Positions 4,919-40,728 of a DNA stretch of 41,289 bases are shown one piece after another. The translations under genes and the position numbers were made by a program. The notes below the pieces were generated by a model, which worked only from the letters and a program-made list of their open reading frames with translations, did not search any database and was not told the DNA's origin. This stretch comes from Escherichia phage vB_EcoM_ECOO78. Location of the stretch: sequence record KY705409, one strand, 5' to 3'. Every line of letters begins with the position of its first letter. Positions within the stretch are counted from its first letter, which is position 1.

Positions 4919-4959
4919 TTTACTTATGTAAATGATATAATCGTTTATACCTATCAATA
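4919..4959 (-). promoter_or_regulatory. Conserved bipartite upstream element TATTGATAGGT-N15-ATTTACATAAGTAAA (copy 1, upstream of methyltransferase)
   Basis: Minus-strand sequence read directly; near-identical element at 10001-10042. Confidence 0.5.
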
Positions 4960-4990
4960 AAAACAAAACCCGCCGAAGCGGGTTATTATT
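4958..4990. terminator. Bidirectional intrinsic terminator (UUCG/CGAA-loop hairpin)
   Basis: aaaaacaaaacccgccgaagcgggttattatt: 5-bp GC stem, 4-nt loop, A/T-rich tracts on both sides; immediately after primase-helicase stop. Confidence 0.6.
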
Positions 4991-15719: not shown

Positions 15720-15725
15720 CCAAAG

Positions 15726-15751
15726 AAAAACCCCGCCGAAGCGGGGTTTTG
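15726..15751. terminator. Intrinsic terminator after rightward early operon
   Basis: aaaaaccccgccgaagcggggttttgtg: 6-bp GC stem, 4-nt loop, T-tract. Confidence 0.65.
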
Positions 15752-25508: not shown

Positions 25509-25525
25509 TCTTCTTGGGGTTTGTC
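25509..25525 (-). repeat. Copy 1 of exact 17-bp motif (minus strand GACAAACCCCAAGAAGA), intergenic upstream of sheath gene
   Basis: Plus strand TCTTCTTGGGGTTTGTC, immediately after terminator hairpin. Confidence 0.9.
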
Positions 25526-25528
25526 CGT

Positions 25529-25550
25529 AAAAAAGCCCGCCGAAGCGGGT
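25529..25550 (-). terminator. Intrinsic terminator/attenuator (UUCG-loop hairpin plus U6)
   Basis: Minus strand acccgc-UUCG-gcgggc followed by UUUUUUA. Confidence 0.6.
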
Positions 25551-25562
25551 AAAGGCGACAAA

Positions 25563-31360: not shown

Positions 31361-31699
31361 TTATGTCACCACTATGCCGTCAATTGTTATTTGTTTGCCG
31401 TCTGGCAGGTATTCGCCGGTAATGGACAATTCCACGCGTCCTGGTTCTGCTGATGTTGCTGTCACCTGCTGCACGCTGATGCGTGGTTCCCAGGCTTCCA
31501 GTGCTTCCGCAGTTGCTGCGTACAGGTCCAGCAGCGTGCTGCGGTTCATCGGTGCATCAACCAGGTAGGGCAACCGGCTGCCGTAGTCGCGGCGCATCAC
31601 TCGCGTGCCAATTGGCGTCGTGAGTATGTCTCTTATGGATTGGCGCAGATGGTCTAAACCATCCAGCGGCGCGCCTGTGGCCGCGTTTGTTCCTTTCAT
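31361..31699 (-). CDS. Baseplate assembly protein W (gp25-like)
   Basis: 112 aa with IRDILTTPIGTRVMRRDYGSRL motif typical of gpW/gp25. Confidence 0.8.
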   Translation of the reverse strand: MKGTNAATGAPLDGLDHLRQSIRDILTTPIGTRVMRRDYGSRLPYLVDAPMNRSTLLDLYAATAEALEAWEPRISVQQVTATSAEPGRVELSITGEYLPDGKQITIDGIVVT

Positions 31700-31732
31700 G
31701 CGGGCAATGATGCCCGCATGGGTGATGGTTTA

Positions 31733-31749
31733 TCTTCTTGGGGTTTGTC
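31733..31749 (-). repeat. Copy 2 of exact 17-bp motif, intergenic between V stop and W start
   Basis: Plus strand TCTTCTTGGGGTTTGTC. Confidence 0.9.
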
Positions 31750-31752
31750 AGG

Positions 31753-33514: not shown

Positions 33515-33843
33515 AAGATACCATCTTGGCGCGTCATCCTCACCACGGCAGTGCCTGTGCCATCCTGTTCCGGGGATGCCAGCACGTCGAAGGTTTCACC
33601 GGCCACAATGATTGTGTCACCACGCAGGATGCCAGCCAGGTCAGATTCCTTTGCCGTGATGCGCGGGCTGCTGGTGTCCGCTTCATACTCGCCAATTTGC
33701 GCGTTGAAGTACGGATCATCAAAGATGGCGTTAATTGTTCTGGTCCAACCTTTTTGCGAATGAATAACGGCGGGAAATGCAAACCCGCCGTTGGTGTCAA
33801 GGTCAAAAAAGTCGTCCAGGTTTTCCCAGGACGGCGCGGGCAT
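33511..33843 (-). CDS. Putative head-tail connector/adaptor protein
   Basis: 110 aa ORF downstream of capsid genes. Confidence 0.45.
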   Translation of the reverse strand: MPAPSWENLDDFFDLDTNGGFAFPAVIHSQKGWTRTINAIFDDPYFNAQIGEYEADTSSPRITAKESDLAGILRGDTIIVAGETFDVLASPEQDGTGTAVVRMTRQDGIL

Positions 33844-34199
33844 TACTGTGATTCCCGCTTATTGCCAACCAGCACAACGCTGCGGATTGCCGAACCGGAA
33901 CTGGCGGAAACATCCTTCACACGAACAAATTTTTTGAATCGGTCAGCATTAAACAGGATCGTGTCAGCCTTAGCTGCGGTGCCGATCTGCGCAAAAGTGG
34001 TATTGGGTACGTCAGCCCAATTGGTTGAACCGTCATCACTGTGTTGCAGGCTTACAGTGGTGGTGCCAGCAGTGCCGATGCCGTTAAGGTGAAGCAGGCA
34101 CAGGCCATGATAATCACCAACGTTGACGGCTGAACCGTTGCCGCTGGCTGTGATTGTTGCTGGTGCGGCCAGAACCGTTACAGATGTGCCGTGTTGCAT
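33843..34199 (-). CDS. Putative head-associated protein
   Basis: 118 aa Thr/Gly/Ser-rich beta-type sequence directly after capsid region. Confidence 0.4.
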   Translation of the reverse strand: MQHGTSVTVLAAPATITASGNGSAVNVGDYHGLCLLHLNGIGTAGTTTVSLQHSDDGSTNWADVPNTTFAQIGTAAKADTILFNADRFKKFVRVKDVSASSGSAIRSVVLVGNKRESQ

Positions 34200-34501
34200 T
34201 ATTCGTCACCCTCTTTGATTTCGCCTGCGGCTTCGATGGCTTCAATCAACTGCGCTTTGGTCATCTTGTCAGCGCCTTCAATTTCCATCTGCTCTGCAAT
34301 GGCGATAAGCTGATCTTTGTTCATTTTCGTGATTTCAACATCGTCATCACGCGCTGGTTGTTCGTCGTGCATCTCGGCCTTGCCGCGTGACAACAGATTT
34401 TTGGCCTCAAGCTCTGAAACCTCAACCAGTGAACCTGCTTTCATGACTTCGCCGCTGATAGCAATGGCGGAAGTCAATTTCAGTACGTAAGTACCAGGCA
34501 T
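34199..34501 (-). CDS. Hypothetical protein with tandem HeH/Rho-N-like motifs
   Basis: Start MPGTYVLKL with GGAG RBS 7 nt upstream; motifs MNKDQLIAIAEQMEI and MTKAQLIEAIEAAGE. Confidence 0.45.
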   Translation of the reverse strand: MPGTYVLKLTSAIAISGEVMKAGSLVEVSELEAKNLLSRGKAEMHDEQPARDDDVEITKMNKDQLIAIAEQMEIEGADKMTKAQLIEAIEAAGEIKEGDE

Positions 34502-34526
34502 AAACTGTCTCCTGTTTGATAAGACT

Positions 34527-34546
34527 ATGGCCGCCGAAGCGGCCAT
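34527..34546 (-). other. Perfect 8-bp stem hairpin with UUCG loop, no U-tract (attenuator or RNA-stability element after capsid gene)
   Basis: Minus strand AUGGCCGC-UUCG-GCGGCCAU between capsid stop and next RBS. Confidence 0.5.
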
Positions 34547-34554
34547 TGTTCTGG

Positions 34555-36600
34555 TTACGCGTTGCGGCCTAGGCAGAAGGATTCAACGCGGCGCACCGCA
34601 AAATCCACGTCCTGGAATACCACGATGCGCAGGCCACCGGATTTGCTCAGGCTGTACGGGTCAACAGTCATATCCAGGCCACCCCACATACCAACCACCA
34701 GGTCAGCGAAGTTGCCAAAGAACACGTCACCATCCTGCACCTGGTTGGTAACTTCGGCGCGGTAACCGTTCAGGGTGTTGCCCGGCTCCCAAATCACGCC
34801 AGCGTCAGCAACGGAAGAACCACTGGCAAACTTCGGCGTGGTTTTCGCAGCGCCACGGCCACGCGCGTTAAGCACATATGCCATGTTGTTCACGTCAGCG
34901 TTGTCAGCCGCGATTTCGGTTTCCATCTGCACCAGTTCCGCATAAGTCGGATTGGCTGCTGCGAAGTCTACCGCGTTAATGCCGGTGTAGTTCGCCAGGC
35001 CAAGCGGCTGGTTGCTGGTGCCTGTGCCGTAGTAACCAGCGTAATCAATCGCCTGCGCGATAGCTGCCACCAGGTCACCACGCACGATGGCTTCCGCATC
35101 CGGGGTGGATTGCATCAGCAGGCGGCGTGTAATGTCGGTGTATGCCGCAACAGTTTTCGGTGACAAGCCAAGCTGGCCGATGGTCGGCGTGGTTTCGGTT
35201 GCGTCATCACCTTCACCAATCCAGTAGGCAGTAGCACCGCCAGTCTGTTTTGGGATTTCGACGTTGCCAACCAGGCCGCCCATAGTACGCGCCAGGCGCA
35301 TGATGGTGGTGCGCGGGCGCAGCAGGTCGATGAACGAACCGGCCATAAAGTCAGTGCCAACCAGGTTAGAACCGGTTTGAGCGCCTGCCGGGGTGTTCGG
35401 TGCGCCACCAGCGTTGAATGCACGCAGAACATCGTCAGGGATCAGGATGCCTTTTGCACTGCGGCCATACTGCTGTTGCGCTGCGTGGCTGCATTCGATT
35501 TCAAACGCTGCGGCACGCTGTGCGGCTGCATCGTTCGGGTTAGCCAGAGCGCGAACCACGTTGAAAATGCTGTAGCGGCGGATGTCTTTGTCAGACATAC
35601 CAATCACGCTGGACGGCATTTCTGACAGCGGCTTGCTGCCTGAACGGGTGCCATCAGCCGGTTGTGCCGGGTCTTTCGGCTTGTTCAGGTGGTCCAGCAA
35701 GGAACGCTGGAAATCTTCGGCGGTGGTGCCTTCGCCAATCGCTTTCAAAGCCAGGTCACGTGCGTTGTACTTCTCGCCCATCTCAGTGATGGAACGCACG
35801 CGCGCTTTTTCAGCTTCACGGCCACGCTGTTCAGCGTTGCGCGTATCATCGCCAGCACGTTCCAGCATTTCCAGAACCTGCGTGATGTTGCCTTTTTCGT
35901 CTACCATTGCGCGCACCAGGTTACCGGCTGCGTCGCGCAGAATTTTTTCCATTCTAATGCCCTCAGATGCAATATTTGTTGGTGCTGGAACCTCTACGGT
36001 GCCCGCAGTATCGGATTTGCCGACGCGTTGTTCTTCTTGGGGTTTGTCAAACGCACGCCCAATGCCAACGCTGGTGTCAGCGGGAACGCTCACAATTGAA
36101 ATTTCGAACGGTTCCCATTCAGTGATGCGGTAGACATCCTGCCACTCGTCACGCGTTTCCTGTAGCTTGGCCGCTAACACGCGGTAGCCAACGGAAACAT
36201 GCTTGCGAATGCCGTCAACGATGTCCTGGAAAATCTCGTCAGCGCGTGCACTTCGGCCAAAGCGCACCACAGCCCGCCCCCGGCGGTCAGCGTCAATGCT
36301 GACTGATTCAACAACGCCCACCTGGTCAGTCCAATCGTGGTCAACCAGCAGCGCCCCACCGTCACGCAGACGGTCCAGGCGCACGCTTTCCGGCGAATGG
36401 TCCAGAATTTCGATACCGTACCAGCGTTCAACCTCGATTTCGGATGAAAACGCCAGTTCTACGGTGCGTTTTTCGGTGTCAAACTTGCGCACTTCCATAG
36501 TGCGCACCAGCCCGCCTTTGTTGAAATCAGGCAGCGTTTTGCTGTCTGATTTGCGGGTAAATTCGGCCCCAATGATGCTATTCAGCAGGTTTTTCTGCAT
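34555..36600 (-). CDS. Fused prohead protease, scaffold-like linker and HK97-fold major capsid protein
   Basis: 681 aa: N-terminal HK97-type prohead protease-like region, charged coiled-coil linker, C-terminal capsid-like domain; possible internal in-frame start at 35952 (GAGGG RBS). Confidence 0.75.
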   Translation of the reverse strand: MQKNLLNSIIGAEFTRKSDSKTLPDFNKGGLVRTMEVRKFDTEKRTVELAFSSEIEVERWYGIEILDHSPESVRLDRLRDGGALLVDHDWTDQVGVVESVSIDADRRGRAVVRFGRSARADEIFQDIVDGIRKHVSVGYRVLAAKLQETRDEWQDVYRITEWEPFEISIVSVPADTSVGIGRAFDKPQEEQRVGKSDTAGTVEVPAPTNIASEGIRMEKILRDAAGNLVRAMVDEKGNITQVLEMLERAGDDTRNAEQRGREAEKARVRSITEMGEKYNARDLALKAIGEGTTAEDFQRSLLDHLNKPKDPAQPADGTRSGSKPLSEMPSSVIGMSDKDIRRYSIFNVVRALANPNDAAAQRAAAFEIECSHAAQQQYGRSAKGILIPDDVLRAFNAGGAPNTPAGAQTGSNLVGTDFMAGSFIDLLRPRTTIMRLARTMGGLVGNVEIPKQTGGATAYWIGEGDDATETTPTIGQLGLSPKTVAAYTDITRRLLMQSTPDAEAIVRGDLVAAIAQAIDYAGYYGTGTSNQPLGLANYTGINAVDFAAANPTYAELVQMETEIAADNADVNNMAYVLNARGRGAAKTTPKFASGSSVADAGVIWEPGNTLNGYRAEVTNQVQDGDVFFGNFADLVVGMWGGLDMTVDPYSLSKSGGLRIVVFQDVDFAVRRVESFCLGRNA
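36032..36048 (-). repeat. Copy 3 of exact 17-bp motif, inside protease-capsid gene (encodes DKPQEE)
   Basis: Plus strand TCTTCTTGGGGTTTGTC. Confidence 0.9.
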
Positions 36601-38134
36601 TTTGCTGCCCCATTAACAGTGTTTTGTCCATGCCCATGCTTTGCATGACCAGTTTTTCCGCCATTTCTCGGCTGATACCGTGCTGCGTGTACGCCTCAAT
36701 CATGCGTGCCACGTCGCTAGCGGTTTCCTTCCAAACGGTGTCAGGGTCGCTGCCACCTTCACGGATGATGCGGCCAGGCGATTGCAGCATGTTGTTTTTT
36801 GATTTTTCAGCCGCTGCCACGTCAGATGACGGGTCAATCCAGGCCCAACGGCGTGGCTGCCATTCAATATTGCTGTAACGGTCTATGCGTTCCGGTTTCA
36901 GGCTGCGGCCCTTCACCGTGATGCGTCCAGACAGCAGGGCGCGCGGCAGCCAGGCGTCAAAAACAGGCTGGTGCAGGTTTTCGATTAGCCATTCCTGTAA
37001 TTCCTTCCAGCTTTCGCGCTCGTCAAGCGTGCCCTGGCGGATAGAACTGAAATTGACGCCTTCCAGGTCGTTGGCCAGGTTGTTGTAAGCAACACCCATG
37101 CCCGAAGCCATGCCGCGCAGCATTTGTTTGGTGAACACGGCAAATTCGCCGTTGGGGTATTGCGGTGACCAGTCTTTGACGCGTGCGCCCTGTGGCAGCA
37201 CCTGGAATTCACCCGGTTCACTGTCAATAATCAGTTCGTCATCATCTTCAAATTCAGGGCCAGCGGAATTTTCATCCCATTCAATGAACCCCATTTTGTT
37301 GGCACCGGCGCGCGCGTTGACCAGTGCGGCTTCTTCCATGCCGCCCAGGTGGCGCATACGAAACAGGCTGGTGGCCATCCAGGGCAGGCCGCGTTTCTGG
37401 CCCACCATGTCATCAAAAAAGCCGTGCAGGATTTCTTCCGCAGGCACGCGCACGAAGTCACGCCCGGACCAGCGGTAGTTTTCATCCGATTCATCAACGG
37501 TGCTGAAATAGTACGCGATAGGCCGCCCGTAGCGGTTAAATTCGATGCCCTGGCGGATGAAATTTCCGTTTGGCATCCGATCTTCAACCATGTCCACCGG
37601 GCAGCGTTGCGGGTCCAGCAGTTGCAGCGAGAAGCCCCACGGCCCTGCGTCAGCCCCGAACACCAGGCGCACGAAGAATTCACCGTCTTTGGCCACGCTG
37701 TTGACGCAGGCGGCCTGGATGGCGCGCCATGACAACTTCCCGGTCACGTCACAGTTAGTCTTTTTGCCCCATGCGTCAAACGCCAGTTCAATGGCTTCAT
37801 TCGCCAGGGTGTCCAGTTTTCCGGTGTTATCCTGGCTTTTTGCCTGCAACAGAACGCCTTTTGGCCCCACAATGTTTGTGCGGCACAGACGCAGGAACTT
37901 TTTGGCATAATCATTGTTGGCGGCCTGTTCGCGGGAACGGGCCACCAGGATGCGTTGATTTTTGGTAATGACTTCATCAGCCGTCAGCGGCTGCGTGCCC
38001 CACGCGGTGCCAAAACGGTCAACGCTGGCCCCGGTAAACATACGGGACGCCAGGCGGTTAAGCGGTAAACGCCGCGTGCGCGGCTGTTGTGCCTGTTCGG
38101 CAGGCTTATTTCTGGTAAATGGCCACAGTTTCAT
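36578..38134 (-). CDS. Portal protein (lambda gpB family)
   Basis: 518 aa; lies between terminase and protease-capsid genes; family call from memory of lambda-type portals. Confidence 0.8.
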   Translation of the reverse strand: MKLWPFTRNKPAEQAQQPRTRRLPLNRLASRMFTGASVDRFGTAWGTQPLTADEVITKNQRILVARSREQAANNDYAKKFLRLCRTNIVGPKGVLLQAKSQDNTGKLDTLANEAIELAFDAWGKKTNCDVTGKLSWRAIQAACVNSVAKDGEFFVRLVFGADAGPWGFSLQLLDPQRCPVDMVEDRMPNGNFIRQGIEFNRYGRPIAYYFSTVDESDENYRWSGRDFVRVPAEEILHGFFDDMVGQKRGLPWMATSLFRMRHLGGMEEAALVNARAGANKMGFIEWDENSAGPEFEDDDELIIDSEPGEFQVLPQGARVKDWSPQYPNGEFAVFTKQMLRGMASGMGVAYNNLANDLEGVNFSSIRQGTLDERESWKELQEWLIENLHQPVFDAWLPRALLSGRITVKGRSLKPERIDRYSNIEWQPRRWAWIDPSSDVAAAEKSKNNMLQSPGRIIREGGSDPDTVWKETASDVARMIEAYTQHGISREMAEKLVMQSMGMDKTLLMGQQNAEKPAE

Positions 38135-38679: not shown

Positions 38680-40728
38680 TCACCAGCGGCTAACCCATCC
38701 ACCGCCACGGCGTTTGGATGCCCTGGCGGAACGTTTAATGGGCTTAGTCTCTGTGACTTGCTGTTTTTCTTCTTCTTGGGGTTTGTCATTGGCCGGTTGC
38801 GGCACTTCCACCGGTTTCACGATGGGTTTGACGTTCGGCAGCCGCTTGCGCCGTTCCGGTGGCGCGTTGTCGTTCGCTACGCCAAACTTTTCAGCCAGGC
38901 GGCGGAATGACGGCTGCATGATTTTAAGCGCGGCCAGCGCATAGTTGCGGCAGTCCAGTGCTTCGTTGCGCGCCCGGTCGGGTTTCTTCCACTCGCGGAT
39001 TGGCTGGCCCTTCACGTAACGCATGGTCAGCTTTTCAGCGGTGATTTGCTTAAACCATTCTTCATCGCGGTCAGCAGGGAAGTGGCAGAAACCTGGCCCC
39101 GGTGCCGTCTTGTTTAAACGCCGTGCGGTAATCAGCTTGGCTTCATCGGTGCCCACCAGGAATAAATCCACTTTGCGGGCATCCTTCCCGGATTGCTTGC
39201 GCTGCGGCTTCTCCACGATAGGACGGCCCCAACCGCCCACGCCTTTGATGGCAAACAGGCGGCGGCCTGTGCGCCCTCTGGCGTAGTCATAGGCGGCCTG
39301 CGTGTAACCGCTGGTGCCCCCGGTATCGAGACAGGCGGCCATAATCGGCATGATGGCCCCGGTTTCGTGCTGGTAGGTTTCCGCCAGCAGGTCATCCAGG
39401 GCATCCCAGGGGTCAGGCGTCAGCGGGTCACCCCACAGAACGTGGTAACCCAATGACCAGGATTCTTCACCCACGCCCCAGGCCACCACTTCGCATTCCA
39501 GGCGGTCAACCTGCATGTCTATGCCTGCGGTGATATACAGCCCACCAGCAGGCACCTGCGCTGCGTATTCCTCGCGGCGCGCCATCAGTGAATCCGGGTC
39601 AACCTTGTCGCCTTCTTCTTCCCAGGTGCGCGCCAGGCTGACGTTGGTGAAGGTTTGCAGGTCGTCAGTTTTCAGCTTGTCCAGGTAGTCACGCACGATG
39701 GCCGGAACTTTGCGGAATGTGCTGTATAGTTCGTTCAGGTGGTAGCTGGCGTGCCCTTCAAACGGCCTGGACGCCTTCCAGCCTGCGCCCTTTTCTTCGG
39801 CCTGGCGGATAGCCGCTATCCGTTCGCCGTCATTCCACTGCGCGCCGCACGATGGGCAGTACAGGTGCGCGGTTTCCGGCCTCTGTTCGTCGATGGCCGC
39901 CAGCGTTTCCGCGTCAGTTTCGCGCTGGCCATCCCATTTGACGTATTCCCATTCAAGCGTAACGTGATCGTCACAGTGCGGGCAGCAAACGAAGAAATGC
40001 CGCTGGTCGCCCATTTCATATGCTTTTTCGATGTAGGATTCCCCTTTAAGGGTAGGGGTGCTGATTTCCAGCAAAAACCGCTGGTCACCGAAGGTGGCAG
40101 AACGCTGCCACAGCAGGCCAACCGGGTGCCCTTCGCTGGTTCGTTCATATCCGTCTACCTCGTCACATACAATCAGCGGCGCTGAACGCCCGCGCATGGT
40201 CTTTGGCGAACCGGACCAGGCGAACATCAGGAACCCGCCAGGGTATGATTTCATTTTCTGGTTGTTCACCCCGTCGCGGCCACGCGGTTTGGCAATAGCG
40301 TTGTTTACCGGCGCGCATTCTTCCGCCAGCGGGTTGAATTTCGTTTCCAGCCAGGTGCGCAAGTCATCCTGGCTTGGCTGCATCATCATCTGGCTGCGCG
40401 GTTCAGCGGCTACGCTGTACGCCTGCACGCACAGTGCCAGCATGGTTTTGCCCACCTGCGCGCCCCACATCAGCGTTACGCGGTAGCAATCAGGGTCAAC
40501 CAGCATGTCCATTGGTTCGCGTTGGTATGGCGCGTTATCCAGGCGCAGCGGTCCTGGCACGGCGTTGCCAGACGGAATGCGGATGTTTGCCTGCGCCCAC
40601 TCTGACGGCTTCATGTCTGGCGGCGGCAACAATTGTTGTTGTGCGCGCCGGATGGCCTGGTCAATGCCTTCGATATTGGCAAACGGGTTATTCTTCGCTG
40701 TCACCGTCGCCCCCTTCGTCATAGCCAT
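38680..40728 (-). CDS. Terminase large subunit (lambda gpA family)
   Basis: 682 aa; Walker A-like GAQVGKT, Walker B LIVCDEVD; C-terminal basic tail. Confidence 0.85.
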   Translation of the reverse strand: MAMTKGATVTAKNNPFANIEGIDQAIRRAQQQLLPPPDMKPSEWAQANIRIPSGNAVPGPLRLDNAPYQREPMDMLVDPDCYRVTLMWGAQVGKTMLALCVQAYSVAAEPRSQMMMQPSQDDLRTWLETKFNPLAEECAPVNNAIAKPRGRDGVNNQKMKSYPGGFLMFAWSGSPKTMRGRSAPLIVCDEVDGYERTSEGHPVGLLWQRSATFGDQRFLLEISTPTLKGESYIEKAYEMGDQRHFFVCCPHCDDHVTLEWEYVKWDGQRETDAETLAAIDEQRPETAHLYCPSCGAQWNDGERIAAIRQAEEKGAGWKASRPFEGHASYHLNELYSTFRKVPAIVRDYLDKLKTDDLQTFTNVSLARTWEEEGDKVDPDSLMARREEYAAQVPAGGLYITAGIDMQVDRLECEVVAWGVGEESWSLGYHVLWGDPLTPDPWDALDDLLAETYQHETGAIMPIMAACLDTGGTSGYTQAAYDYARGRTGRRLFAIKGVGGWGRPIVEKPQRKQSGKDARKVDLFLVGTDEAKLITARRLNKTAPGPGFCHFPADRDEEWFKQITAEKLTMRYVKGQPIREWKKPDRARNEALDCRNYALAALKIMQPSFRRLAEKFGVANDNAPPERRKRLPNVKPIVKPVEVPQPANDKPQEEEKQQVTETKPIKRSARASKRRGGGWVSRW
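38771..38787 (-). repeat. Copy 4 of exact 17-bp motif, inside 3' end of terminase large-subunit gene (encodes DKPQEEE)
   Basis: Plus strand TCTTCTTGGGGTTTGTC. Confidence 0.9.

What the first reader, a model, noticed from the sequence alone, without database searches (positions are those of the whole stretch)
34555..36600. Protease, scaffold and major capsid protein fused in one 681-codon ORF, with a likely internal in-frame start
One ORF carries an N-terminal HK97-type prohead protease-like region, a charged coiled-coil linker and a C-terminal HK97-fold capsid-like domain. An in-frame ATG at 35952 (MEKILRD) is preceded by GAGGG with a 7-nt spacer, which could yield a nested scaffold-capsid product of about 465 aa, analogous to lambda C/Nu3. 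A copy of the 17-bp motif lies 27 codons upstream of this internal start, at the protease/linker junction.
Basis: partly seen in the sequence, partly recalled or inferred. Interest (0 to 1): 0.55.

Follow-up and report, generated by a model that had tools for sequence, protein, structure and literature searches.

The report
Capsid gene with a nested gene
One phage gene fuses the head protease, the scaffold and the shell protein, and comparison with relatives indicates that a second promoter and start site inside it make the scaffold-shell part alone, probably so that shell protein outnumbers protease.

Summary
ORF 34555-36600 (-) encodes 681 aa: an S78 (HK97-type) prohead protease, a disordered linker, a helical scaffold region and an HK97-fold capsid domain. 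The fusion is already known: it is annotated in relatives (PPpW-3, ep3, Arya) and described for the related phage Murka.

The comparative evidence for a nested gene is new as far as I could search. In about 20 lineages, down to roughly 50% identity, a start codon sits at this junction. It is ATG in most, and GTG or TTG where the residue is Val or Leu. GAGG, AGGAA or AGGAGG lies 5-10 nt upstream, although the surrounding linker has diverged.

The "17-bp motif" is the upstream half of a bipartite element: a lineage-specific box, exactly 20 nt, then [C/G]AnA[A/C]T. It recurs at the same five late-gene positions in each genome, including inside this gene. This predicts a transcript starting near 36000.

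Best reading: an intragenic late promoter plus SD-ATG makes a 465-aa scaffold-capsid protein, and the rarer full-length protein carries the protease into the prohead. This resembles herpesvirus UL26/UL26.5 more than lambda C/Nu3. No transcript or protein data exist. It is a new variant of a known kind, of moderate interest.

The parts
34555..36600 (-). Full-length fused ORF, 681 aa, 73.8 kDa: protease, linker, scaffold, HK97-fold capsid protein
36598..36600 (-). ATG of the full-length product. It has a weak SD (GGGG, 8-nt spacer, anti-SD pairing -4.7 kcal/mol) and overlaps the end of the portal gene (36578-38134) by 23 nt
36082..36498 (-). Prohead protease domain (aa 35-173; Pfam S78 match aa 84-176). 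H88 (LLVDHDW) and S136 (HVSVGY) are invariant in 54 homologs
35953..36081 (-). Disordered, fast-evolving linker (aa 174-216) that carries the intragenic expression signals
36033..36049 (-). It encodes DKPQEE
36007..36012 (-). -10-like hexamer GATACT, exactly 20 nt after the box. The predicted transcription start is near 36000
   Evidence: A 48/51 at +22, A 38/51 at +24, T 45/51 at +26, over 51 instances in 13 genomes
35960..35964 (-). Shine-Dalgarno GAGGG, 7 nt before the internal ATG (anti-SD pairing -6.1 kcal/mol)
35950..35952 (-). Internal in-frame ATG (M217), the first in-frame ATG after the predicted transcription start
34555..35952 (-). Nested ORF: scaffold plus capsid protein, 465 aa, 49.5 kDa (predicted product)
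35401..35952 (-). Scaffold (delta-domain-like) region, aa 217-400: three strands, long charged helices at 251-306 and helices at 337-396. Presumably removed at maturation
   Evidence: boundary inferred
34567..35370 (-). HK97-fold major capsid domain, aa 411-678. It aligns with the 268-aa capsid chain of roseophage R4C (PDB 8gta)
38746..38788 (-). Upstream copy of the same promoter-like element (box 38788-38772, hexamer GAGACT 38751-38746) inside the 3' end of terL. It is the predicted source of transcripts that cover the head-tail joining gene, the portal gene and the full-length fused gene

Best explanation
This is the head-assembly gene of a Jilinvirus-like myophage; the window is 95-97% identical to Salmonella phage PT1 and E. 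coli phages ep3, HeidiAbel and ECO1230-10. One reading frame joins an HK97-type (S78) prohead protease, a disordered linker, a scaffold (delta-like) region and an HK97-fold capsid domain.

Shown by sequence and comparison: the linker contains a complete second expression unit. It consists of a lineage-specific box (36049-36033), a -10-like hexamer exactly 20 nt further on (36012-36007), a Shine-Dalgarno sequence (35964-35960) and an in-frame ATG (35952).

Inferred: late in infection the phage's small HTH 'late transcriptional activator' (ORF 1838-2272) recruits host RNA polymerase to these boxes. Transcripts that start near 36000 are translated from M217 into a 465-aa scaffold-capsid protein, which is the bulk building block and equivalent to HK97 gp5. 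The 681-aa full-length protein is made in smaller amounts from longer transcripts that begin at the box in terL. Its own start has a weaker ribosome-binding site and overlaps the portal gene. The full-length protein co-assembles through its identical scaffold-capsid part, and so carries the protease into the prohead covalently. The protease then removes itself and the scaffold, leaving a mature shell protein of about 270-285 aa.
For: Architecture.

Start site conserved at the nucleotide level:
- All 9 isolated relatives have GAGG[GA], then 7 or 10 nt, then ATG. The peptide in front of it differs (SEGIRM, FEDSRM, TEDKRFM, SEDKRNM, PEGIRNM) and the Met shifts by 0-2 codons.
- Metagenomic relatives at 47-62% identity keep GAGGA, AGGAA, GAGGAG or GAAGGAAGG followed by ATG.
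- Of 54 protein homologs, the five without Met have Val or Leu at this position. In the four whose DNA was checked, the codon is GTG, TTG, GTG and GTG, each 5-8 nt after GAGG.
- L013 lacks a junction Met but has AGGAGG, 5 nt, GTG, with anti-SD pairing of -10.3 kcal/mol.
- The residue after the SD glutamate is G, D, E or V. All are GNN codons, so the conservation is of GAG-G, not of an amino acid.
- M217 is the first residue after the disordered segment 174-216.
- The predicted leader is unstructured (z = +0.75).

Promoter:
- Each lineage has its own box, repeated at the same syntenic places: the terL 3' end, the capsid linker, upstream of the baseplate-wedge gene, upstream of the sheath gene directly after a terminator, and upstream of holin.
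- In 51 instances from 13 genomes, a -10-like [C/G]AnA[A/C]T follows after exactly 20 nt.
- At the baseplate-wedge copies the ATG lies 7 nt after the hexamer in the activator-type lineages checked (5 nt in L025). That is the usual distance from a -10 element to a transcription start, and it implies a leaderless mRNA. This independently supports the -10 assignment.
- No sigma-70 consensus promoter is found on this strand in the region, which fits dependence on an activator.
- Relatives that use a lambda-Q-type antiterminator have no boxes but keep the SD and start codon.
- The internal SD pairs better with the anti-SD than the SD of the full-length start (-6.1 against -4.7 kcal/mol).
Against: - There is no transcript, ribosome-profiling or protein evidence for any member of the group. 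The literature I could search describes only a single propeptide.
- In the window alone the SD-ATG is unremarkable, ranking 6th of 43 in-frame start-type codons.
- M, L and V are chemically similar, so a structural constraint could explain part of the residue conservation.
- Some lineages have a weak SD or none (L025, L027, L034).
- The box-hexamer element is inferred to be a promoter. Binding by the activator and the transcription start are untested.
- The intragenic promoter could exist mainly to boost transcription of the downstream head and tail genes.
- The lineages are related, so the instances are not independent events.
Confidence: 0.7

Rival explanations
1. There is only a single polyprotein. 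Every capsid subunit is made as the 681-aa protease-scaffold-capsid precursor and processes itself. The junction Met/Val/Leu is a structural residue at the start of the scaffold fold, and the GAGG arises from a preferred acidic dipeptide.
For: The published description of the homolog in phage Murka is a single 684-aa propeptide. M, L and V are similar residues. The window's SD-ATG is not exceptional on its own. L025, L027 and L034 have weak SDs.
Against: The Met moves by 0-2 codons relative to EKILRD. All four non-Met cases checked use GTG or TTG, not other Val or Leu codons. The residue after Glu varies (G, D, E, V) but always keeps a G in first codon position. L013 has a perfect AGGAGG-GTG. 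The surrounding linker is otherwise poorly conserved (0.46). A complete promoter-like element sits just upstream in every activator-type lineage.
Confidence: 0.12
2. The internal translation start is real, but the intragenic box-hexamer element is not a promoter for it. Both proteins are translated from the same long late mRNA, as in lambda C/Nu3. The box would serve another purpose, for example as a regulator-binding site, an RNA-level site, or only a booster for downstream genes.
For: Relatives with a Q-type antiterminator keep the SD and start codon without any box, so the nested start does not need the element. Promoter function is inferred only.
Against: The element has a fixed 20-nt spacing to a -10-like hexamer. 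It follows a terminator at the sheath gene. It places the baseplate-wedge ATG 7 nt after the hexamer in the lineages checked (5 nt in L025). It always points the same way as the late genes. It is kept at the capsid position in every activator-type lineage, and the junction ATG is the first in-frame ATG downstream, except in the L026 lineage.
Confidence: 0.1
3. The full-length fusion is not a real product. The true genes would be a protease and a separate scaffold-capsid gene, with the missing stop codon due to a sequencing artefact or to an unrecognised recoding event.
For: The nested ORF has the organisation of a stand-alone HK97-type capsid gene. Stand-alone scaffold-capsid ORFs exist among distant relatives (L038).
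Against: The open frame is conserved without a stop in all 54 homologs and about 30 loci, from independent isolates and assemblies.
Confidence: 0.02

Closest known systems
Homologous genes already annotated or described: Pseudomonas phage PPpW-3 gp05 ('putative major capsid protein and peptidase U35'), E. coli phages ep3 and ECO1230-10, Enterobacter phage Arya, Xanthomonas phage Murka (PMC10892653), phrog_617
   Same: Same gene and same three-part order; 69-97% identity for the sequenced relatives compared here. The Murka paper states that protease, scaffold and HK97-fold capsid protein are encoded as a single 684-aa propeptide.
   Different: None of these records or papers mentions an internal start or an intragenic promoter. 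They annotate one product only.
Herpesvirus UL26 / UL26.5 (HSV-1 protease-scaffold gene with a nested, in-frame scaffold gene that has its own promoter inside the ORF; from my own knowledge, Liu and Roizman 1991)
   Same: A protease at the N-terminus of a long product. A shorter, more abundant product, identical to the C-terminal part, is expressed from a promoter and start codon inside the ORF. The protease fold is related: the best structural matches of the domain model are T4 gp21 and herpesvirus proteases.
   Different: Here the nested product also contains the capsid protein itself. The promoter is bacterial and activator-dependent. Nothing has been shown experimentally.
Lambda C/Nu3 and Mu I/Z (in-frame nested scaffold genes within a protease gene; own knowledge)
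   Same: An internal SD and start codon give a scaffold-containing product that shares its C-terminus with a protease-carrying product, which sets their ratio.
   Different: In lambda and Mu the capsid protein is a separate gene, and no dedicated intragenic promoter is known to me. The lambda C protease belongs to a different family (S49/ClpP-like).
Gifsy-2 'tripartite capsid gene' (Effantin et al. 2010, Virology 402:355; cited, content from my own knowledge)
   Same: Protease, a central region of about 200 aa and an HK97-fold capsid protein in one ORF.
   Different: The Gifsy-2 protease is ClpP-like, not S78. A ClpP/S49-type fusion to a homologous scaffold-capsid module was seen here in L037, and it also has an SD-ATG at the junction.
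HK97 gp4 (protease) and gp5 (capsid protein with an N-terminal delta domain)
   Same: The nested 465-aa product has the gp5 organisation, with the scaffold fused to the capsid domain. The protease family is S78 and the capsid has the HK97 fold.
   Different: In HK97 the protease is a separate protein that is targeted non-covalently. Here it is read through into the capsid gene. The scaffold region is about 184 aa, against 102 aa in HK97.

Membership tests
HK97-fold major capsid protein (Pfam PF05065, TIGR01554) | Sequence match above the curated cut-off | tested here: met
   PF05065 159 bits against 24.2. TIGR01554 122.5 bits against 27.5. PDB 8gta capsid chain, E 6e-55.
HK97-fold major capsid protein (Pfam PF05065, TIGR01554) | HK97 fold of the C-terminal domain | tested here: met
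   Foldseek on the model: 8gta, RcGTA, HK97, encapsulins, SaPI1 and T5, with E from 6.6e-15 to 1e-4. The model's overall confidence is moderate (pLDDT 61.6).
Peptidase S78 (HK97-type prohead protease) | Sequence match above the curated cut-off | tested here: met
   PF04586 38.6 bits against 21. The narrower equivalog TIGR01543 scores 36.3 against a cut-off of 59 and is not met.
Peptidase S78 (HK97-type prohead protease) | Conserved catalytic His and Ser | tested here: inconclusive
   H88 (LLVDHDW) and S136 (HVSVGY) are invariant in 54 homologs. Equating them with HK97 gp4 His65 and Ser114 rests on my recollection of the motifs, not on an alignment made here.
Peptidase S78 (HK97-type prohead protease) | Assemblin-like fold | tested here: inconclusive
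   Domain model has pLDDT 82.8. The top nine PDB matches are T4 gp21 and herpesvirus proteases, but they are weak (best E 0.026, probability 0.96, TM 0.44).
NCBIfam NF045541 'prohead protease/major capsid protein fusion protein' | Score above the curated cut-off (525 bits) | tested here: not met
   166.6 bits, covering aa 40-319 only. This is a related but different fusion family.
Nested in-frame assembly genes (lambda C/Nu3, Mu I/Z, HSV UL26/UL26.5) | In-frame internal start codon with a ribosome-binding site, at a domain boundary downstream of the protease | tested here: met
   GAGGG, 7 nt, ATG at M217, conserved as SD plus ATG/GTG/TTG across the family. Boundary.
Nested in-frame assembly genes (lambda C/Nu3, Mu I/Z, HSV UL26/UL26.5) | The shorter product is actually made, and in excess | not testable with these tools
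   No proteomic or ribosome-profiling data were found for this phage group.
Nested in-frame assembly genes (lambda C/Nu3, Mu I/Z, HSV UL26/UL26.5) | Own promoter inside the ORF (the UL26.5 type) | tested here: inconclusive
   A promoter-like bipartite element is conserved at this position. Transcription from it was not measured.
Gifsy-2-type tripartite capsid gene | Protease, central domain and capsid protein in one ORF | tested here: met
Gifsy-2-type tripartite capsid gene | ClpP-like protease domain | tested here: not met
   The protease here is S78, and there is no ClpP or S49 hit.
Sigma-70 consensus promoter | -35 TTGACA and -10 TATAAT with a 16-18 nt spacer | tested here: not met
   The scan finds no such site at these places. 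Only a -10-like nAnAnT is present, with the box occupying about -33 to -50. This is the layout expected of an activator-dependent promoter.

The most novel reading that the evidence does not exclude
Across a whole subfamily of small myophages (Iiscvirinae and their relatives), the 'single propeptide' capsid gene would in fact be two nested genes, and the inner one would have its own activator-dependent late promoter written into the coding sequence of a disordered linker. That would make it a bacterial counterpart of herpesvirus UL26/UL26.5. These phages would also use a previously undescribed class of late promoter: a lineage-specific box that co-evolves with a small HTH activator, 20 nt, then a -10-like hexamer. 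Three of the five copies would lie inside coding sequences and one would drive a leaderless mRNA. The nested start may be general to protease-capsid fusions, including the ClpP-type Gifsy-2 class.
Probability: 0.6. Interest if true: 0.6.

Novelty: new variant of a known kind. Interest (0 to 1): 0.5.

Why it matters
Protease-capsid fusion genes are common in phage genomes and are annotated as a single product. That raises a stoichiometry problem: a T=7 shell needs about 415 capsid subunits but far fewer proteases. A conserved nested gene would resolve it. It would also explain how the protease enters the prohead, as a covalent extension of a few subunits, and it would correct the annotation of thousands of genes.

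The box-N20-hexamer element gives a testable late-promoter model and a probable leaderless gene for a poorly studied phage group that is being used for therapy and biocontrol. It also shows how promoters can be placed in coding sequence by using disordered linkers and C-terminal tails. The parallel with herpesvirus UL26/UL26.5 adds to the known kinship between tailed-phage and herpesvirus capsid assembly.

Tried and rejected
- No close match in complete E. coli genomes, so this is not a resident prophage of that collection.
- The exact 17-nt motif is absent from Arya and PPpW-3, even with 3 mismatches. This first looked like evidence against function. Inspecting the syntenic positions showed that each lineage has its own version.
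- Reading the motif's TGACA as a -35 element was rejected. No -10 lies 17 nt downstream, and the conserved hexamer is 20 nt after the motif's 3' end.
- A test of SD strength within the window alone was not discriminating.
- Literature searches on PPpW-3, ep3, ECO1230-10, Jilinvirus, Iiscvirinae, Foxunavirus, protease-capsid fusions, Gifsy-2 and UL26.5/Nu3 found no transcript maps, no N-terminal sequencing and no mention of an internal start.
- The FoX3 virion mass-spectrometry table is not held, and the Gifsy-2 paper is not held.
- The R4C capsid paper says nothing about precursor processing.
- Foldseek on the whole-protein model returned only capsid matches, so the protease domain was modelled separately.
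- Co-variation between the activator's recognition helix and the box was examined but cannot be separated from shared ancestry.
- A synonymous-rate analysis was considered and not run. The close relatives are too similar, and the box changes between lineages.
Full report
**1. What is there**

The window carries, on the - strand, an ATG-initiated ORF of 681 aa at 34555-36600. Pfam places a Peptidase_S78 (caudovirus prohead serine protease) match at aa 84-176 and a Phage_capsid (HK97 family) match at aa 411-678, both above the curated thresholds. PHROG family 617, 'major head protein', matches the protein end to end (aa 30-680, E 3.6e-211). The fusion is therefore the normal state of a known family.

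Reading the - strand gives GAGGG at 35964-35960, a 7-nt spacer, and ATG at 35952-35950, which is M217 (MEKILRD). The nested ORF is 465 aa. The motif TGACAAACCCCAAGAAG lies at 36049-36033, and its 3' end is 27 codons upstream of that ATG. All the coordinates in the finding are correct.

**2. Identity and context**

The gene is 95-97% identical in DNA to Salmonella phage PT1 and to E. coli phages ep3, HeidiAbel (Bas97), ECO1230-10 and Alux-21. It is 84-87% identical to Enterobacter phage Arya and Klebsiella phage KA2-1. Its capsid half is 77% identical to Pseudomonas phage PPpW-3. There is no match in complete E. coli genomes.

These are small myoviruses of the subfamily Iiscvirinae (genus Jilinvirus and relatives), which the BASEL paper describes as poorly characterised. 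The gene order on the - strand is terS, terL, a head-tail joining gene, a lambda-type portal gene (Pfam PF05136), the fused gene, and then head-completion, baseplate and tail genes.

The fusion is already on record:
- PPpW-3 gp05 is named 'putative major capsid protein and peptidase U35'.
- NCBI curates a family called 'prohead protease/major capsid protein fusion protein'. This protein matches it only partly, 166.6 bits against a cut-off of 525.

**3. Domain anatomy**

An AlphaFold model built on 54 homologs has only moderate confidence (mean pLDDT 61.6). It shows:
- a beta-rich domain at aa 35-173;
- a disordered segment at 174-216;
- a new folded segment that begins exactly at residue 217, with strands at 217-247 and long charged helices at 251-306 and 337-396;
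- a disordered stretch at 393-423;
- the capsid domain.

Foldseek matches the C-terminal part to the capsid proteins of roseophage R4C (8gta), RcGTA, HK97, T5 and SaPI1, and to encapsulins. By sequence, the 268-aa R4C capsid chain aligns to aa 411-678. This suggests that the mature shell protein starts near aa 395-411 and has a mass of about 29 kDa.

The protease domain modelled alone has pLDDT 82.8. Its best PDB matches are the T4 gp21 prohead protease and then herpesvirus proteases. The scores are weak (best E 0.026, probability 0.96), but the ranking is coherent. H88 (LLVDHDW) and S136 (HVSVGY) are invariant in the family. From memory these correspond to the catalytic His and Ser of HK97 gp4; I did not align them here.

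**4. Is the internal start more than chance?**

In the window alone it is not. Of the 43 in-frame ATG, GTG or TTG codons, five have an equal or better predicted pairing with the anti-SD. The comparative evidence is what decides the matter.

(a) The nine isolated relatives all have GAGG[GA], then 7 or 10 nt, then an in-frame ATG just before the conserved block (E/N)K(I/V)LRD. The peptide in front of the ATG differs among them (SEGIRM, FEDSRM, TEDKRFM, SEDSRM, SEDKRNM, PEGIRNM), and the Met moves by up to two codons.

(b) Among 31 IMG/VR loci with 31-89% identity, most fused genes keep the arrangement: GAGGA with 7 or 10 nt, GAAGGAAGG, AGGAA with 9-10 nt, or GAGGAG with 9 nt, followed by ATG.

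(c) Among 54 protein homologs, only five lack a Met at this position. They have Val or Leu instead. I fetched the DNA for four of them, which are E. coli and Salmonella prophage types. The codons are TTG, GTG, GTG and GTG, each 5-8 nt after GAGG.

(d) L013 has no junction Met, but it has AGGAGG, 5 nt, GTG, with anti-SD pairing of -10.3 kcal/mol.

(e) The residue after the SD glutamate is G, D, E or V. All are GNN codons, so what is conserved is the nucleotide string GAG-G and not an amino acid.

(f) The linker is the least conserved part of the protein. Its majority-residue identity is 0.46, against 0.86 for the protease and 0.83 for aa 217-247.

The exceptions, with a weak SD or none, are L025, L027 and L034.

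A ClpP/S49-type protease fused to a homologous scaffold-capsid module (L037) resembles the Gifsy-2 arrangement. It also has AAAGGAA, 8 nt, ATG at the junction.

**5. The 17-bp motif**

The exact motif is missing from Arya and PPpW-3. However, each of those genomes has its own motif at the same five places:
- inside the 3' end of the 'late transcriptional activator' gene, upstream of holin;
- inside the 3' end of terL, upstream of the head-tail joining gene;
- inside the fused capsid gene, directly after the protease domain;
- upstream of the baseplate-wedge gene;
- upstream of the sheath gene, directly after a terminator hairpin.

The same pattern holds in metagenomic lineages, each with its own box. 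Examples are GGAAATCCCACAAGAGG, GGAACCACCGCCAGCGG, AAAACCCCGCCGTGG, GAAAATCCCGGACGTGG and GGAAAAAGCCCAAGAGG.

I aligned 51 instances from 13 genomes on the 3' end of the box. This reveals a second element exactly 20 nt downstream, [C/G]AnA[A/C]T. A is present in 48/51 at +22 and 38/51 at +24, and T in 45/51 at +26. At most other positions T occurs in no more than 10 of 51 sequences. This has the signature of a -10 element (A at the second and T at the sixth position), and it puts the box at about -33 to -50.

There is an independent check. At the baseplate-wedge copies the ATG lies 7 nt after the hexamer in the activator-type lineages checked (5 nt in L025), which is the usual -10 to +1 distance. 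That implies a leaderless mRNA and explains why this gene has no SD.

No sigma-70 consensus promoter is found on this strand in the region. The 144-aa activator (phrog_836) has an HTH resembling sigma-70 region 4, below the Pfam thresholds. Its putative recognition helix differs between lineages that have different boxes, but this is confounded with ancestry.

Relatives that instead carry a lambda-Q-type antiterminator have no boxes and a shorter linker, yet they keep the SD and start codon. So the nested translation start is the more general feature. The intragenic promoter is an addition found in the activator-regulated lineages.

**6. The intragenic unit in this window**

On the - strand the unit consists of:
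- box at 36049-36033;
- hexamer GATACT at 36012-36007;
- predicted transcription start near 36000;
- SD at 35964-35960;
- ATG at 35952.

This ATG is the first in-frame ATG after the predicted start, 54 nt after the hexamer. The leader is predicted to be unstructured. The signals are written into the coding sequence of the disordered linker. The box encodes DKPQEE and the hexamer encodes D-T. This explains the small islands of apparent peptide conservation in an otherwise variable linker.

**7. Mechanism**

Shown: the architecture, the conserved start signals, and the conserved promoter-like element.

Inferred: late transcripts from the intragenic promoter yield the 465-aa (49.5 kDa) scaffold-capsid protein as the main subunit. 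The 681-aa (73.8 kDa) protein is translated from longer transcripts that start at the terL box. Its start has a weaker SD (GGGG, -4.7 against -6.1 kcal/mol) and overlaps the portal gene by 23 nt. It co-assembles through its identical C-terminal part and brings the protease inside the prohead. The protease then removes itself and the scaffold.

A rough estimate of my own, not a tool result, bears on this. If all of the roughly 415 subunits of a T=7 shell carried about 400 internal residues, the internal protein would fill around half of the prohead cavity. With the nested product it would fill about a quarter.

**8. Comparison with known systems**

The nested product has the organisation of HK97 gp5, a delta domain followed by the capsid domain. 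The whole gene therefore looks like HK97 gp4 read through into gp5, with gp5 keeping its own expression signals.

Nested in-frame genes that set the ratio of protease to scaffold are classical in lambda (C/Nu3), Mu (I/Z) and herpesviruses (UL26/UL26.5); this is from my own knowledge. Only the herpesvirus case has its own promoter inside the ORF, which makes it the closest analogue. The Gifsy-2 tripartite gene shares the three-part layout but has a ClpP-like protease.

**9. Verdict**

The fusion is already known. The nested gene is well supported by comparison but unproven, and I found no report of it or of the promoter element in the literature I could search.

I classify it as a new variant of a known kind and give it an interest of 0.5. 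A specialist would find it plausible rather than startling. It is directly testable, it would change how a very common class of capsid gene is annotated, and it comes with a clear late-promoter model for a neglected phage group.

Noticed in passing
window boxes 1897-1913, 25510-25526, 31734-31750, 36033-36049, 38772-38788 (- strand); same syntenic sites in L001, L002, L009, L011, L012, L014, L018, L022, L025, L026, L027, L033: A bipartite late-promoter-like element occurs at five late-gene positions in each genome: a lineage-specific box of 16-17 nt, exactly 20 nt, then [C/G]AnA[A/C]T. The box differs between lineages but is uniform within a genome, which suggests co-evolution with the phage's small HTH activator.
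   Followed up: yes
window 31697-31750 (- strand); Arya L002 9535-9590; PPpW-3 L001 9703-9760: The ATG of the baseplate-wedge (GPW/gp25-like) gene lies 7 nt after the -10-like hexamer in most lineages checked (5 nt in L025), and the gene has no Shine-Dalgarno sequence. It is probably translated from a leaderless mRNA. In PPpW-3 the annotated start (9744) appears to be one ATG too early.
   Followed up: partly
window 38772-38788 (terL 3' end), 1897-1913 (activator gene 3' end), 36033-36049 (capsid linker): Three of the five boxes lie inside coding sequence, always in a C-terminal tail or a disordered linker. The encoded peptide changes with the box (DKPQEE, DTPHEE, ANPQEE), so the protein sequence there appears to be dictated by the DNA signal.
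   Followed up: partly
L041 (E. coli GCA_040932755.1), L040, L042-L044: Prophage-type relatives in E. coli and Salmonella (about 69-72% identical fused protein) carry a lambda-Q-like antiterminator (PF03589) in the two loci fetched with wide flanks (L040/L041, L042). These two have no boxes and a shorter linker. All four loci checked (L041-L044) keep GAGG followed by GTG or TTG at the protease/scaffold junction.
   Followed up: yes
L037 4279-6453: A ClpP/S49-type protease is fused to a homologous scaffold-capsid module, resembling the Gifsy-2 tripartite gene. It also has AAAGGAA, 8 nt, ATG at the junction. The nested start may therefore be general to protease-capsid fusions of both protease types.
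   Followed up: partly
window 34199-34546 (- strand): The gene just downstream of the capsid gene is named 'endonuclease VII' in RefSeq relatives. Pfam finds instead a Rho_N (SAP-like) domain and DUF7210, so the annotation looks doubtful. The next ORF (33843-34199) has a weak F5/8-type-C (jelly-roll) hit and may be the cementing or minor capsid protein mentioned for phage Murka.
   Followed up: no
L014 9669-9760, L022 5803-5900, L026 10491-10580: In this metagenomic lineage (about 52% identity) an in-frame ATG or GTG lies 6 nt after the intragenic hexamer. This could be a leaderless alternative start, in addition to the SD-ATG 54-60 nt downstream.
   Followed up: no
window 25527-25554, 2654-2682, 4959-4987, 15722-15750: There is a family of GC-rich hairpins with T-runs, resembling intrinsic terminators. 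The hairpin at 25527-25554 ends immediately before the sheath-gene box, so a terminator and a promoter abut.
   Followed up: partly
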